NCBI GenBank assembly: GCA_051362555.1
Contig: CM120647.1
Coordinates: 18,576,651-18,640,650, forward strand
DNA: 64,000 nucleotides
Source of the DNA: Lingula anatina
Lineage: Eukaryota > Animalia > Brachiopoda
Reading direction: 5' to 3'
Part shown: positions 27,743-41,236 of the stretch, one piece after another
Layout: every line of letters begins with the position of its first letter
Position numbering within the stretch: the first letter of the stretch is position 1
Program-made: the position numbers and the translations under genes
The notes under the pieces: generated by a model
Databases searched by the model: none
What the model saw: the letters and a program-made list of their open reading frames with translations, nothing else
What the model was told of the DNA's origin: nothing

Positions 27743-30700
27743 TTAGTGCATTTTCTGTATCACATTTCCAGCCAGCTCCTTGATAGCCTGTGAGGTATTG
27801 GAGGACAGAATATCCTCTAGAAGTTTATGCAAACGTGTCTCAGTCATGAAACTCTCTTTAAAGCTTGGGTCTGAAATTAAGAACAAAATAAGTTCAATGC
27901 TTGGGTCCAAAATGATATAGTAATTTAAAATAAATAAACTTTCGAAGTTGATTAGACATAAATGTTAGATTTATTTTTAAACTTAACATCTTGAATGAAA
28001 TTTGCCCCAGAACAAAAATTAACATTAACAAATCAAATCAAATAACTCACTGTTAAGCAGCTGTTGTAAAGTCCACAGGGCAATGTGAACAAAACTGGGC
28101 TCAGGATTCCCAAGGAATTTGTCAATGTAGAGAAGTAAACCTGGAGTATTTTTGTCTAACAGATCCTCTTCAATGTCTGGAACGTAAGAAGATAAGGTCA
28201 GTATATTAGAAGAAAGCTCACAGAATTAAAACCAGTTATACACATCAACCAATGGTTTTAGACAGATTACTTGCCAACCAAATCAACCAGTTTCAGATGG
28301 AATACTTCTCAACTAAGTAAAGGGATAATTTTATATGGAGTACTTACCAACTAAGGAAAGGGATAATTTACATGGAGTACTTACCAACTAAGGCAATCTG
28401 CCCTATAGTTCCTGCACAGTTGTACTGCACTTCAGAGTTTCTTGACAGAGAAGCCAGGGAGACCAGCTTGCTGAAGACTTTACCATCCTGAATCTCAAGA
28501 AGTCGCTGTTTTGTATCATCTGTAAAAATAAACACAGTCATATACTGCTTGGTACACCTACTGGGAATAAGTGTTGAACAACAGCAAGAGAGCGATTTAT
28601 GTGTTATATTTTTAGAAAGCCTAAAAACACATTCAGCTAGTTGGTGGTCAGTAAAACTGAAAATCAATAGGGAAGAATAAAATAATACAACCTTTAATTT
28701 TCATTTTTTTTTCTTTTGTTGACAGCAAAAACAAGTAACTTGGTATTTCATCATGATTTTTAAAAATTTTAATTTCAGAAAAAACATGTTTTCTGGTTGC
28801 CTGTAAAACTGAACATTTAAAGTAGGTGGCCTAATTGTGAGCTAGGAATAAACAGAAACAACTCTGGTCTGTTCGAAACAAGGACAAAGAATGTTGCTAC
28901 TGCTCATGATGATGATGATGATGATGATGTTAATGATGTCAATAACGATTATGATTATGACAATGTTGATGATGATGATGATGATGATGTTAATGATGTC
29001 AATAACGATTATGATTATGACAATGTTGATGATGATGATGATGATGGCCTAACTGTTCTGTGAACTCACCTTCATCAGCCAGCACAGCTAATGCTGCAGA
29101 CACCTCACTCTGTACAGGGACTGGAGTGATAGGGGTGAGCAACACTTCTGCCAGGGCGTCTACACAGCCGCATGATGCTAATACCTAGAATAGATGAATA
29201 CAGCAAGGGATTAAGATTTTGTGGTTGACCTATAAATCGGCAGTCAAAGCTGGTTCACTGATAAATGCATGTACATGTATACACGCACAGGCACACACCA
29301 CAAACACAAGATAAAAACTTTGTTTAACGCTAATGTTTAAAAGAAATATGGCGTATAGGTGAGAGGCTTCCATGCAACAGAACTGCAAGTGATACACCCA
29401 CAGGCTATAGGCCAACAGGTAATAGGCATACAAGTGATAGGATCCAGTGAGACTGGCACATATTAAATAGGCCCACTTTTGTATATCACACATTGATGAT
29501 CCCCCCAAATTTCCCAACAATTAAACCCTGCATTCCTCACCCTTATATGGTCCCCTGCTGCAAGATTTCTGATTGTCCCGGCGGCGTGGCGTTGTGCTTC
29601 GGAATTATCCATCTGTGCCACAACCCTACTGAGATCTGGCAAAAAATCTTGCGATATAATAGGAATCTCATTGGCCTTGTGTATGGACAAATTGCGCAGA
29701 CAGGCAATGGCGGCGGTGAGGATGTCTCCCGTCCCACTTTTGATCATCTTATGCAGGACGCCTAGTCCTCCAAGACGAACTATGAGAAGTTGATTGTCTG
29801 CATCCGAGGCGAGATTTCTCAGTGCTAGACACGCTTGGCACTGTACCTAAGGAAAAAGAAGAATAATCATGAGATGTCCTTATCATCATTATCCAAGGTG
29901 GTTTCCTCAGAGAATTTTATTGGTATTTCTCACATCATTTGCCATTAATCAGTAGGTTTTGTTGTCCCTAAACAATGTTTTGTGTGTGATTTTAAATATT
30001 TGATAAGAAATTTCCAATTAGTAGACAAGGTTCAAGACAGAAAGTTATCTTAAGTTTGTAGCTAATTATTATTATTCTCTCTAAAATAGCATATTCATAA
30101 TAAGTGTAATATTTGAAATTTGTGTACTATACAACTACCAGTACTCATATTAAAAAAAAAAATTAATTTAACACACACACATATCCAAATTTTAAGATAT
30201 TAACATTTTAAACTAAATCCTTTAATTTAGAAACACCAGTGAAAACAACTCACCCTAACCACAGGAGAGGAAACCAGACTAATCAGCTGTACCATGACAT
30301 CATAGTAACCCACGGCAACCATCATGGCTCGATGTTTCTCGTTGACGGCCATATTACTAAGAGCCGCAGCGCAGTAGTATTGAATATCTGGGTCGCGAGA
30401 TTGCAGAACATCAACTAGGATAGGCATTGCCCCCTTGGATACCAGTTCATTTCTAATAGATTCTGGAATTAAAATCACACTAATTATTTTTCAAACCTCA
30501 TAAAATGGGCACACCATTATCATTTGAATTACACCCCTTTTTTTAGTTCTTAATTACTAGTTTTACCACTACAAAAGTAATTTACCAGTCTCCATCTCCA
30601 TAACCAGAGACTTGAACAGAAACGTAACAGACTAAAAGACTGTAACTTTCTCAGCAGTTTTGTATTGGGCCTACCCTCATCTGGTGATTTAGACAACGCT

Positions 30701-31357
30701 TTAAACTTATTTGCTTATTTAAAGGTCTTATGCTCATTGTGGGCCATAAAAACCAAACAGATGTCTAAAGGTCTTTTAAAAAACAGGGAGGTCTCTGTCC
30801 TACTGCTTTCCACTTACGTAAATGTGTAAGATTGAGTATGGCTCCTGCTGCATTTCTCTGCACGCGAATGTCAGCGCTCTTGGCCAGTCTGAGTAATGGT
30901 TTAATGGCGCCAGACTTGGCGATGGTCAGTTTGTTGTTGTCTGAAGTGGCAAGAGTAGTGATACAGCCACACGTGTTGCACTGAACTTCGAAATTTTTTG
31001 TTTCCAGGAGGCGAACCAATGCCCTGATGGCGCCACTGGTCAGGATCGTGGTCTTGTTGGATTCTAGAAAGAGAAAGCATAATAACTGATGAAAATGGCC
31101 AACCACAATTTACATGTCAAATCTTATTGATGCTGTTACTGAACTGTTATAAGATGTAATAAAGTTGGTGTCGAGACCTCTGATGGAAGACTTCTGGTCT
31201 CTGATGATGTAAGTGATAAGAGTATTCAGGAAGTCTGGCAATGATATGGCTTTTAATTTAACAGTTCACAATATAAACCAAGAAAATGTGAATACATCAA
31301 CACAGTGTGCTTGTGAGAGAATTAGAGAGAAAGAGACAGAGAGATTAAAGTGAGATG

Positions 31358-39600: not shown

Positions 39601-41236
39601 TGAGATAAATATTACATAATGACAGTTACCCTTTTAGTATACAGAGGTCGGGCCTTCACAATGAACCTTTGTTTTGCCAAAATCATTATAAATTCTGACA
39701 TGTCCTCTTCCATTAAAAGACCAATTAACAGGGGTGTCCCCTCATTATTTGCTGATGTTATCACTATAATTGTATATCCCACTGTCTATGGTTAATTATT
39801 CAGAAAAAAAGACTTAACTGTTAAGATTAGTTCATCCAAGAAAGCCAATCTTATCCTTCTCCAGATCAGTAAAATCATTGTATTATATTCAGAGAACAAG
39901 TCTTTGATCTCTCTCTCTCTCCACCCCCCCCCCCCCCCCCCACTTCCCAGTCCATGTAGATGTCCACACTAGAAAATAATGTTGTAACCAGGTGACTGCA
40001 TACCAACACACATATATGAGCATATATTTGTATAGCCAAGGATAGGTTTAGTAAAAGACTACAGCAATTGAAACTGGAGTAAATGCATCCACACCAAAAT
40101 AAGTTTATATCTTGATTCTGACTATAGGCACTAGTGATGGCTTTATGTCTGCATAATGCCCTGGTCAACAATCAGAAAACTTGGACATACCTTAACATAG
40201 CAAATCCTAAAATGACAACATCTTCAAAATGAACCAGGTGATTGTAAAGTAACTACATTCTGATTCATCAACTACAGTATCCAAAAATAAAGTTGTCCTT
40301 AGAAGTTAGACCTCATCTTGAAAGTCACTTCATGTTAAGGACAATGTTTAACATGTTCACTGATGTAGTGCATACCTTAGATACAGCTCCATACACACCA
40401 AACATTTTGATTCATCTTTTCAAGTGTAAACTAATTTCCCTCTTTCCTTTAGTTTTTTTTTTATCACTACAAAGGGGTGTCCTTTCCTGTCATATGAAGT
40501 TATTTTTTCCTTTAATTTTCAAAATTGGCTGAGATATCATGCAAAATACACCAATTTTTTTAGTCAAGTTAGGACACTCTTTCTTTGCTCATATGAAATT
40601 AATCTTTTTTGTAATCAAGTTGGGAAGCTTTTATTTAGTACATGGAAAATATGCCACTTTTACAGTCAAATTTTGTCCGTTTCACTCAGTACATAGAAAA
40701 TTGACAACTTTATAGTTGATTTAGGGTAGTAATTTACTACCTGCCATCCCAGCAGACCAAGGATTTAATACACACACAAAAAAAAGACAAAAAAAAAAAA
40801 AAAAAAAAAATGAACCTGTCACCTCCCTTTAATGCATAAAATACTCAAAATTCATGATTCAGCGCAAGGACATCCTTATACAAGAACACACACACACACA
40901 CACACACACACTCAATCAATCAATACATTTTTTGCAGTAAATAAGTATATTTATACAAATTCAGTTTCAGTTTTAATGGGATTGCCTTTTTTTCTCACCG
41001 TTCTCTAAATACATGAGCAAGTTCTGCACGGCCCTTCTCTCCCCCTCCAGTAATTCGGGATCATTGGCATCATCTTCCACGCTCCCATCCGGTTTGGGAT
41101 AGCAACCACATGTGATGCAGTATGCGCAGTATCCGGCCAACCGCCGCAAGATCTTCAAAAGTTCATCGAAAAAGTCGCGTTTCTTCTTCTTGGTGGGAAT
41201 GGCCCTGCCCTGAATCATAACCAGCTCCGCAGACAT
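27743..41236 (-). CDS. VAC8: Vacuolar protein 8-like armadillo-repeat protein, 10 coding exons, 581 aa
   Basis: Minus-strand exons 41236-40999, 32997-32875, 32396-32277, 31063-30818, 30462-30254, 29846-29541, 29184-29070, 28519-28385, 28176-28051, 27870-27743 (1746 nt, phases join). Collinear with yeast Vac8 motifs as I recall them: ERRAVQNLLMYLE, SDNDELQQSAALCYAEISE, EVQCNTCGCITTLAT, IRVQRNAAGAILNLTH, DPDIQYYCAAALSNMAV, VQCQACLALRNLASD, CLRNLSIH, VQSEVSAALAVLA, FVHIALWTLQQLL. Acceptor at 41258 implies an upstream non-coding exon. Confidence 0.9.
28906..29046. repeat. (GAT)n-derived tract with perfect 60-bp tandem duplication
   Basis: 28921-28980 is identical to 28981-29040. Confidence 0.9.
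31361..31825 (+). repeat. Interspersed repeat with (GA)n, copy 1
   Basis: (GA)n followed by about 400 bp alignable to 46797-47285 (ATAATGTGTTAATGAAAAGATAACAC, TATTTTACCACCAAGGCAGC, ACAGCAGCTGCTGTTAAAT). Confidence 0.75.
31829..32040. mobile_element. Diverged MITE with TIRs related to the 42607-42915 element
   Basis: Left ATTCACAACCAAGTTGAGCC resembles ATTCACAACGAGTTGAGCC; right end GGCTGGTTGTGAAC is its inverse. Confidence 0.5.
35025..35217 (+). mobile_element. 215-bp MITE family, isomer B (22-bp internal deletion)
   Basis: GGCTGTATTCCCA...TGGAAATGGGGTC, TAA TSD on both sides. Confidence 0.85.
35771..35985 (+). mobile_element. 215-bp MITE family, isomer A
   Basis: GACCCCATTCCCA...GAGAATGCACTC, TAA TSD on both sides. 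Confidence 0.88.
38235..38392. repeat. Degenerate (ATACA)n simple repeat
   Basis: AATAC/AATAT pentamer runs. Confidence 0.7.

What the first reader, a model, noticed from the sequence alone, without database searches (positions are those of the whole stretch)
27743..41236. A full-length, intron-containing Vac8 orthologue in an animal genome
Seen: the assembled 581-aa protein follows yeast Vac8 (about 578 aa, recalled from memory) motif by motif, from the pre-ARM helix (ERRAVQNLLMYLE) through the ARM repeats to the C-terminal HIALWTxxQLL motif, so this is not generic ARM similarity. Nine GT-AG introns, an 8-kb intron with host MITEs and animal-type neighbours argue against fungal contamination. 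Established: in fungi Vac8 anchors the autophagy initiation site to the vacuole via Atg13, builds nucleus-vacuole junctions via Nvj1 and drives vacuole inheritance via Vac17. It is usually described as lacking a direct orthologue in the common animal models. Inference: this lineage retains an ancestral opisthokont Vac8 lysosome-anchoring or contact-site module. Automated 'vacuolar protein 8-like' labels may exist for such genes, but I know of no functional description.
Basis: partly seen in the sequence, partly recalled or inferred. Interest (0 to 1): 0.78.

Follow-up and report, generated by a model that had tools for sequence, protein, structure and literature searches.

The report
True Vac8 orthologue in invertebrate animals
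This is an intact, expressed lamp-shell (Lingula) gene, already database-labelled "vacuolar protein 8", that descends from the same ancestor as the yeast vacuole-anchoring protein Vac8 and has relatives from sponges to birds but none found in mammals, so it is likely the real animal Vac8 (rather than ARMC3, which papers name), predicted to be a fat-anchored lysosome scaffold whose partners are unknown.

Summary
Ten minus-strand exons with nine GT-AG introns give 581 aa, identical to RefSeq XP_013398907.1 'vacuolar protein 8 [Lingula anatina]'. RNA reads confirm three listed splice junctions. Yeast Vac8 is the best solved relative (E 2e-106; beta-catenin 4e-23). It is not lineage-specific: relatives occur in sponges, lophotrochozoans, echinoderms, amphioxus, sharks, fishes, Xenopus, reptiles, chicken and unicellular opisthokonts; animals form one clade (100/100) beside fungi. 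No mammal is among the 116 named of the 120 best coelacanth hits; a genome test was inconclusive. Lingula keeps 17 of 22 yeast peptide-groove residues, vertebrates 4-11. It lacks Gly2 but has a Cys cluster behind an amphipathic helix. The yeast ligands (Nvj1, Vac17, Atg13 tail) are reported as yeast-restricted, so the 'retained module' is unsupported; a conserved groove with an unknown ligand is likelier. Papers I read call ARMC3 the orthologue; no ARMC3 sequence could be put in my tree. The scan found this family before on skate DNA (e1-10276598).

The parts
40999..41236 (-). Exon 1 (aa 1-79): start codon without Gly2, basic patch, amphipathic helix, Cys cluster, H1 helix
   Evidence: read depth in bin 41028-41528 in 4 of 4 runs
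41114..41176 (-). Predicted amphipathic helix, aa 21-41 (absent from the short fungal N-terminus)
   Evidence: AlphaFold2 helix 21-41, pLDDT about 70; hydrophobic moment ranks 4th of 563 windows
41102..41128 (-). Cys cluster C37, C40, C43, C45: predicted palmitoylation anchor
   Evidence: sequence; 3 or more Cys in 12 aa upstream of H1 in 36 of 38 invertebrate bilaterian-type sequences; acylation itself is inferred
41000..41047 (-). H1 regulatory helix, aa 64-79
   Evidence: aligned to yeast H1; 6 of 7 yeast H1 contact residues identical
32998..40998 (-). Intron 1, 8,001 nt, GT-AG; junction not among the listed read joints
35031..35225 (.). MITE-like element with terminal inverted repeats in intron 1 (copy 1)
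   Evidence: deep read pile-up from copies elsewhere
35770..35988 (.). MITE-like element in intron 1 (copy 2; ends approximate)
   Evidence: 83-86% identical to copy 1; loose read ends at its left border
32875..32997 (-). Exon 2 (aa 80-120): ARM1, the yeast self-association surface
   Evidence: only Vac8 matches at E<0.1 in the PDB; 8 of 11 ARM1 residues identical; junction to exon 3 in reads
32277..32396 (-). Exon 3 (aa 121-160)
   Evidence: both junctions in reads
30818..31063 (-). Exon 4 (aa 161-242), best-conserved ARM block
   Evidence: PDB best hit Vac8, E 9e-42; junction to exon 3 in reads
30254..30462 (-). Exon 5 (aa 243-312): Y271, Y272, N279 of the groove
29541..29846 (-). Exon 6 (aa 313-414): R322, R363, R405 (yeast R276, R317, R359) and N323, N364
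   Evidence: PDB best hit Vac8, E 1e-34
29070..29184 (-). Exon 7 (aa 415-452)
28385..28519 (-). Exon 8 (aa 453-497)
28051..28176 (-). Exon 9 (aa 498-539) with the HIALWT motif
   Evidence: junction to exon 10 in reads
27743..27870 (-). Exon 10 (aa 540-581, stop codon); last ARM without the long fungal loop

Best explanation
The locus is an intact, spliced and expressed Lingula gene for a 581-aa armadillo-repeat protein that groups with fungal Vac8 as its vertically inherited animal counterpart, and it likely works as a palmitoylated scaffold on the cytosolic face of lysosomes or related organelles that would bind extended peptides of partners not yet identified. Shown here: gene structure, expression, fold, family tree and conservation of the groove, ARM1 and H1 residues. 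Inferred: S-acylation of C37-C45, helped by the amphipathic helix and basic patch in place of the lost myristoyl-Gly2, anchors it to a membrane; H1 gates ARM1-mediated self-association as in yeast; the Asn/Arg/Tyr-lined groove reads a partner's backbone. By analogy with fungi the likeliest tasks are organelle fusion, tethering and local recruitment of autophagy factors such as PI3K complex I. The yeast ligands Nvj1, Vac17 and the Atg13 tail are probably not the partners. Orthology about 0.93; the endolysosomal scaffold role about 0.55.
For: Gene model equals the RefSeq protein. Reads splice three listed introns exactly, with first mates on the + strand as expected for a - strand RNA in the three stranded-looking runs; 17 of 17 listed coding differences are synonymous. 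Yeast Vac8 is the top sequence hit (E 2e-106 against 4e-23 for beta-catenin) and top fold hit (41-42% identity against 16-18% for catenins) of an AlphaFold2 model with mean pLDDT 90.7. Careful tree, 49 rows: 24 animal rows one clade 100/100, 13 fungal rows one clade 99/93, all 43 Vac8-like rows apart from 6 other ARM segments 100/100; Ichthyophonus, 'Clim' and Fonticula proteins fall outside both crowns. Groove: 17 of 22 yeast ligand-contact residues identical in Lingula, 15-18 in 9 of 11 invertebrate bilaterians, 16-18 in 4 of 4 named sponges, 19-21 in 14 of 14 fungi, 2-8 in 10 other ARM segments; groove positions match the fungal consensus at 0.76 against 0.40 elsewhere, 0 of 300 random sets as high. 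N-terminal Cys clusters in all groups. Acylation-dependent vacuole anchoring of yeast Vac8 (PMC6899017); vacuole fusion defect without the yeast partners in Cryptococcus (PMC12734321).
Against: No localisation, acylation or partner data exist here. Gly2 is absent in Lingula and in 37 of 38 invertebrate bilaterian-type sequences, and loss of myristoylation alone mislocalises yeast Vac8, so the target membrane may differ. Two groove positions changed on the animal stem (yeast A107 to L, N152 to T) and N62, needed for the Atg13-type dimer, is E/D/G in animals and D in most other fungi. Vertebrate members lost the distal groove (R317, N318, R359, E395; 4-11 of 22) and sit on a long branch (1.26), so one function need not hold across animals. 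Mammalian autophagosomes form at the ER, not at lysosomes. ARMC3, ARMC4, catenins and importins were not in my tree; the outgroups were unnamed ARM proteins.
Confidence: 0.58

Rival explanations
1. True Vac8 orthologue, but redeployed in animals to another membrane or a specialised organelle (for example yolk, pigment or secretory granules, or a germ-cell or ciliated-cell compartment), with new partners.
For: New N-terminal anchor with an amphipathic helix and no Gly2; animal-stem changes in the groove and a long animal stem branch, 0.42; modest read depth on exons and low values for chicken LOC421690 in pituitary (PMC5148799, one table row); patchy range with no named mammal, arthropod, nematode or cnidarian in the hit lists.
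Against: The groove, ARM1 and H1 residues are kept almost as well as in fungi in invertebrates, which suggests an old, shared ligand. No tissue data were available: the runs are coded.
Confidence: 0.27
2. One reading: the animal keeps a yeast-type module in which Vac8 binds Atg13 to anchor autophagy initiation and Nvj1/Vac17-like proteins for nucleus contact and inheritance.
For: The residues that contact Atg13, Nvj1 and Vac17 are largely conserved; the yeast ligands share little sequence and are read through their main chain, so unrecognisable analogues could exist.
Against: Atg13 residues 522-738, which hold the Vac8-binding stretch, are reported as yeast-only (PMC7469494); Nvj1 has no homologue outside Saccharomycetes (PMC6240307); Nvj1, Vac17 and Tco89 were not found in Cryptococcus. 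I had no Lingula ATG13 sequence to test.
Confidence: 0.1
3. A member of another ARM family (ARMC3, ARMC4, catenin, importin-alpha, SmgGDS) mislabelled as Vac8.
For: Automatic 'vacuolar protein 8' labels are attached loosely to ARM proteins (an ARMC4-like Nematostella gene carries it, PMC4300403). ARMC3 clusters score 0.95 by Atlas features and TM 0.68-0.76.
Against: Vac8 clusters rank above them (0.97; TM 0.80-0.86); no PF14381 ARMC3 C-terminal domain among 15 Pfam matches; 581 aa against 690-895 aa for the ARMC3 structure hits; E-value gap of over 80 orders to catenins, ARMC4 and importins; PMC3141441 reports Vac8p, ARMC3 and ARMC4 as separate clades.
Confidence: 0.03
4. Fungal contamination or a horizontal transfer from fungi into Lingula.
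For: 43-47% identity to many fungal Vac8 proteins.
Against: Closer relatives are annelid, mollusc and nemertean proteins (50-57%); the animal subtree roughly follows animal phylogeny; host repeats in intron 1; same locus in a second assembly; spliced reads.
Confidence: 0.01

Closest known systems
Saccharomyces cerevisiae Vac8 (PDB 5XJG, 6KBM, 6KBN, 7YCJ)
   Same: Colinear over aa 54-544, 41-42% identity, same fold; H1 6 of 7, ARM1 8 of 11, groove 17 of 22 contact residues identical; N-terminal Cys cluster.
   Different: No Gly2; about 40 extra N-terminal residues with an amphipathic helix; no long loop in the last ARM (19-20 against a fungal median of 32 residues); N62, A107, N152, L405 replaced; yeast ligands reported absent outside yeasts.
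RefSeq XP_013398907.1 / UniRef A0A1S3IL12, 'vacuolar protein 8 [Lingula anatina]'
   Same: Identical sequence, 581 aa.
   Different: An automatic label; no functional study found in my searches.
Vertebrate 'vacuolar protein 8-like' proteins (coelacanth XP_006007785, Xenopus, chicken, sharks, teleosts)
   Same: Same animal clade; chicken protein's best solved relative is yeast Vac8, E 4e-54; ARM1 and proximal groove Asn/Tyr kept.
   Different: About 35% identical to Lingula; distal groove arginines lost; Gly2 present in 76 of 103 with Cys near the start as well as a second cluster.
ARMC3 (named in papers as the mammalian Vac8 orthologue or homologue)
   Same: ARM-repeat solenoid; reported role in autophagy initiation and ribophagy in sperm (passages; the primary papers were not held).
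   Different: Longer, with a PF14381 domain that this protein lacks; needed for motile cilia in planarians; chordates hold ARMC3 clusters and separate Vac8 clusters, and zebrafish has an ARMC3 gene, so it is likely a paralogue.
Cryptococcus neoformans Vac8
   Same: A Vac8 working without Nvj1, Vac17 or Tco89 homologues; palmitoylated; needed for vacuole fusion (PMC12734321). The nearest functional model for the animal protein.
   Different: Keeps Gly2 and a short N-terminus.

Membership tests
Vac8 (fungal vacuolar ARM protein family) | Full-length colinear similarity to yeast Vac8 far above other ARM families | tested here: met
   One stretch, aa 54-544, E 2e-106; next natural protein 4e-23; fold search ranks 1-5 are Vac8
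Vac8 (fungal vacuolar ARM protein family) | Common descent with fungal Vac8 (gene tree follows the opisthokont tree) | tested here: met
   Animals 100/100, fungi 99/93, unicellular opisthokonts between them; 6 long or ill-aligned rows left out, present in the quick tree with the same animal clade; outgroups are unnamed ARM segments
Vac8 (fungal vacuolar ARM protein family) | H1 helix before ARM1 | tested here: met
   Helix 64-79; 6 of 7 contact residues identical
Vac8 (fungal vacuolar ARM protein family) | ARM1 self-association surface (A51, L52, L55, N60, N62 and others) | tested here: inconclusive
   8 of 11 residues identical, N62 replaced; self-association itself not shown
Vac8 (fungal vacuolar ARM protein family) | Inner peptide-binding groove | tested here: met
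   17 of 22 residues identical; other ARM segments 2-8. 20 sites come from PMC7469494 and PMC10161063; R276 and R359 are recalled
Vac8 (fungal vacuolar ARM protein family) | N-terminal myristoylation glycine (Gly2) | tested here: not met
   Starts Met-Ser; Gly2 in 1 of 38 invertebrate bilaterian-type sequences; it is also absent from 21 of 80 fungal sequences, so it is typical rather than universal
Vac8 (fungal vacuolar ARM protein family) | N-terminal palmitoylated cysteine cluster | tested here: inconclusive
   C37, C40, C43, C45 present and conserved; acylation not testable
Vac8 (fungal vacuolar ARM protein family) | Localisation to the vacuole/lysosome membrane | not testable with these tools
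   Needs imaging
Yeast Vac8 modules (Vac8-Atg13, Vac8-Nvj1, Vac8-Vac17) | Partner proteins with Vac8-binding stretches in the same genome | not testable with these tools
   No whole genome held; papers report the partners or their binding tails as yeast-restricted
ARMC3 | C-terminal PF14381 (EDR1/CTR1/ARMC3 peptidase-like) domain and 700-900 aa length | tested here: not met
   No PF14381 match; 581 aa
ARMC3 | Groups with ARMC3 in a tree | not tested
   No ARMC3 sequence was returned by any search (34 representatives scanned, best 5 families shown each, none showed PF14381)
Beta-catenin/plakoglobin, importin-alpha, ARMC4 | Best sequence and fold match to these families | tested here: not met
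   E 1e-18 to 1e-23, partial coverage; 16-18% structural identity

The most novel reading that the evidence does not exclude
Animals from sponges to amphioxus carry an unrecognised lysosome-anchored Vac8 hub whose groove has stayed almost unchanged since the fungus-animal split because it binds an ancient ligand that is none of the famous yeast ones. Vertebrates remodelled half of the groove and mammals lost the gene, so ARMC3 is a paralogue that took the name, and lysosome-proximal autophagy initiation or lysosome contact sites of the yeast type may still operate in invertebrates, frogs and birds.
Probability: 0.28. Interest if true: 0.72.

Novelty: new member of a known kind. Interest (0 to 1): 0.45.

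Why it matters
Whether animals have a Vac8-like coordinator of autophagy initiation and lysosome contacts is stated as open (PMC8664900), and a 2026 preprint says the localisation of metazoan Vac8 orthologues is unclear while meaning ARMC3-type genes. A true orthologue in oysters, sea urchins, Xenopus and chicken makes the question testable in standard animals and suggests the ARMC3 orthology claim needs revisiting. The strong groove conservation in invertebrates points to a conserved ligand that could also explain what Vac8 does in fungi lacking Nvj1 and Vac17. The gene itself is annotated and found by a plain similarity search, and nothing is particular to Lingula, which limits the score.

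Tried and rejected
Whole-genome search for partner genes: no genome is held. Direct genome test of loss in mammals: exon 4 as a protein probe matched 1 of 12 genomes (the fungal control); 2 mammals, 8 invertebrates of unknown phylum and the one non-mammalian vertebrate control were all blank, so the test says nothing on absence. 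A lipin exon found no mammal handles. Protist genomes: 12 of 20 aligned genomes gave matches, mostly generic ARM at 21-31%; one (B1) has colinear intron-split matches at 36-56% and one (B12) a 68% match on a 368-base contig that may be contamination; not followed up. Homodimer prediction of residues 83-545: no answer, score 0.00, neither for nor against. No ARMC3, catenin or importin sequence could be obtained for the tree. The remaining six splice junctions were not read out. Adding 51 further, mostly unnamed sequences to a quick tree showed no extra animal lineage such as a cnidarian-like branch; this is weak because the 150 listed representatives were crowded by giant ARM proteins. My first exon 3 boundary was one base off and broke the frame; corrected. 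No indexed RNA holder was listed; the runs used were added by species label. Paper searches listed no study of a non-ARMC3 animal Vac8, but long lists were seen only in part (25 of 81, 30 of 119, 25 of 332, 40 of 1,725, 25 of 112), subscription papers are missing, Lei et al. 2021 and Jeong et al. 2017 were not held, no supplements were read, and a 2017 survey of metazoan armadillo proteins (Gul et al., recalled) was not seen and may list this clade. Lipin lying 14 kb away was considered as a functional link (yeast Pah1 acts near the nucleus-vacuole junction, recalled) and set aside: no synteny test was possible.

Full report
Observation. Reading the minus strand gives ten exons between 41236 and 27743 with nine GT-AG introns of 180 to 8,001 nt and an open frame of 581 codons. 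The product equals database protein P0002 at every residue, which is XP_013398907.1, 'vacuolar protein 8 [Lingula anatina]'; the window is therefore brachiopod DNA and the gene is annotated. Raw RNA reads from four runs with the same species label cover the exon bins; introns 2, 3 and 9 are removed exactly as modelled in 3 of 4 runs, and the other six junctions were not among the 15 rows shown because a repeat in intron 1 filled the table. All 17 coding differences listed are synonymous, against 23.5% expected (40 of 191 rows were shown). A second assembly of the species carries the locus on a chromosome-scale sequence. Neighbours are a lipin and an HMG-CoA-lyase-like gene. Contamination is excluded.

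What it is. Against the PDB the protein matches yeast Vac8 in one stretch from residue 54 to 544 at E 2e-106; the best natural non-Vac8 chain is beta-catenin at 4e-23. An AlphaFold2 model (mean pLDDT 90.7) returns Vac8 chains at ranks 1-5 with 41-42% identity, catenins at 16-18%. It lacks the PF14381 domain of ARMC3, and in the ESM Atlas Vac8 clusters rank above ARMC3 clusters by features and by structure. ARM1 alone hits only Vac8; the HIALWT exon alone is not diagnostic.

Range. Named relatives came from four sponges, a nemertean, annelids, bivalves, gastropods, echinoderms, hemichordates and amphioxus, from an argonaut, sharks, coelacanth and teleosts, and from Ichthyophonus, Fonticula, an aphelid and early-branching fungi; a EukProt 'Clim' protein (Corallochytrium by recall) also belongs. 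With the coelacanth protein as query, 247 proteins passed and the best 120 were listed: 116 named, all cartilaginous fishes, sturgeon, coelacanth, amphibians (both Xenopus species), turtles, crocodilians, birds (chicken), lizards or tuatara, and no mammal. Teleosts fell below that cut, so a fast-evolving mammalian copy is not excluded, and my genome test failed its vertebrate control. No named arthropod, nematode, cnidarian, flatworm or tunicate appeared in any list; that is absence from truncated lists only. In the careful tree (49 rows, 529 columns, six long rows left out) the 24 animal rows form one clade (100/100), the 13 fungal rows another (99/93), the unicellular forms lie outside both, Lingula sits with annelid, mollusc and nemertean proteins (100/96), and vertebrates have a long stem. 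This is the pattern of vertical descent from the opisthokont ancestor. The outgroups were unnamed ARM segments; ARMC3 was not available. PMC3141441 (passages) reports Vac8p, ARMC3 and ARMC4 as separate clades and places Vac8p in fungi and plants.

Anatomy. I mapped yeast contact residues from PMC7469494 (passages and section 6) and PMC10161063 (parts 1-3 of 5) through the alignment; R276 and R359 are recalled. Lingula keeps 6 of 7 H1, 8 of 11 ARM1 and 17 of 22 groove residues. In 39 invertebrate bilaterian-type sequences the groove matches the fungal consensus at 0.76 against 0.40 elsewhere (0 of 300 random sets as high); in 103 vertebrate sequences 0.44 against 0.32 (26 of 300). Per sequence: fungi 19-21, sponges 16-18, most invertebrates 15-18 (Argonauta 13, Dimorphilus 10), vertebrates 4-11, other ARM segments 2-8 of 22. 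The N-terminus differs from yeast: no Gly2 (1 of 38), a predicted amphipathic helix at 21-41 and four cysteines at 37-45; 36 of 38 such sequences have three or more Cys in 12 residues. Vertebrates have Gly2 in 76 of 103. The long loop in the last fungal ARM is missing.

How it likely works. Yeast Vac8 is held on the vacuole by myristoylation and palmitoylation (PMC6899017, passages), self-associates through ARM1 under H1 control and binds extended peptides in its groove largely through their main chain. The same parts are present here, so the simplest inference is a palmitoylated peptide-binding scaffold on lysosomes or related organelles. The partners are probably not the yeast ones: the Atg13 tail is described as yeast-only, Nvj1 as confined to Saccharomycetes (PMC6240307, passages), and Cryptococcus Vac8 acts in vacuole fusion without Nvj1, Vac17 or Tco89 homologues (PMC12734321, passages). 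That the groove is nonetheless fixed from sponges to moulds suggests an older ligand; PI3K complex I, which binds yeast Vac8 through Atg14 and Vps34/Vps15 (PMC10337603, passages), is one candidate. Membrane, acylation, dimer and ligand are all inferred; none was shown.

Against the literature. A 2026 preprint (10.64898/2026.10.05.756849, passages), a review (PMC9735501, passages) and a planarian study (PMC12859697, passages) call ARMC3 the mammalian orthologue or homologue of Vac8; PMC8664900 (passages) calls it a potential homologue and leaves the question open. The only animal mentions of 'vacuolar protein 8' that I opened were table rows: a chicken gene (PMC5148799) and an ARMC4-like anemone gene (PMC4300403). 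PMC8666550 and PMC11339336, read as passages, added nothing on animal Vac8. Ten searches listed no study of this animal clade, with the limits given under Tried and rejected.

Verdict. A real, expressed, already annotated member of a widespread but apparently unstudied animal branch of the Vac8 family. New member of a known kind; interest 0.45.

Noticed in passing
window 5263-13305 (+): Lipin gene: Lipin_N (E 4e-27) and LNS2 (E 4e-33) exons.
   Followed up: partly
window 20053-20469 (-): Exon of an HMG-CoA-lyase-like gene (PF00682, E 6e-18); rest of the gene not traced.
   Followed up: partly
window 16953-17024 (-): tRNA-Trp(CCA) gene.
   Followed up: yes
window 53288-58914 (+): Exons of an RS/RD-rich protein; two of them gave no Pfam match. 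Identity not determined.
   Followed up: partly
window 17557-17720, 35031-35225, 35770-35988, 43517-43674, 53271-53458: Family of ~190-nt elements with terminal inverted repeats; the two copies in intron 1 draw read depths far above the exons in all four RNA runs, from copies in other transcripts.
   Followed up: partly
window 42606-42914: 115-nt inverted repeat, 97% complementary, 79 nt apart, upstream of the gene.
   Followed up: no
window 62141-63862: Long degenerate tandem repeat at the end of the window.
   Followed up: no
P0001 (XP_013407644.1): A second Lingula record on a 6,248-base contig is identical to residues 162-581; probably a redundant assembly fragment.
   Followed up: partly
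P0092 (Dysidea avara, 712 aa): This sponge Vac8-like model carries C-terminal TPR repeats: a fusion or a merged gene model.
   Followed up: no
B1:C1:116585-118381: A complete protist genome has colinear, intron-split matches to the protein at 36-56% identity, likely another unicellular Vac8.
   Followed up: no
vertebrate proteins: Vertebrate members have two N-terminal Cys groups separated by an amphipathic helix, and have lost the distal groove arginines.
   Followed up: partly
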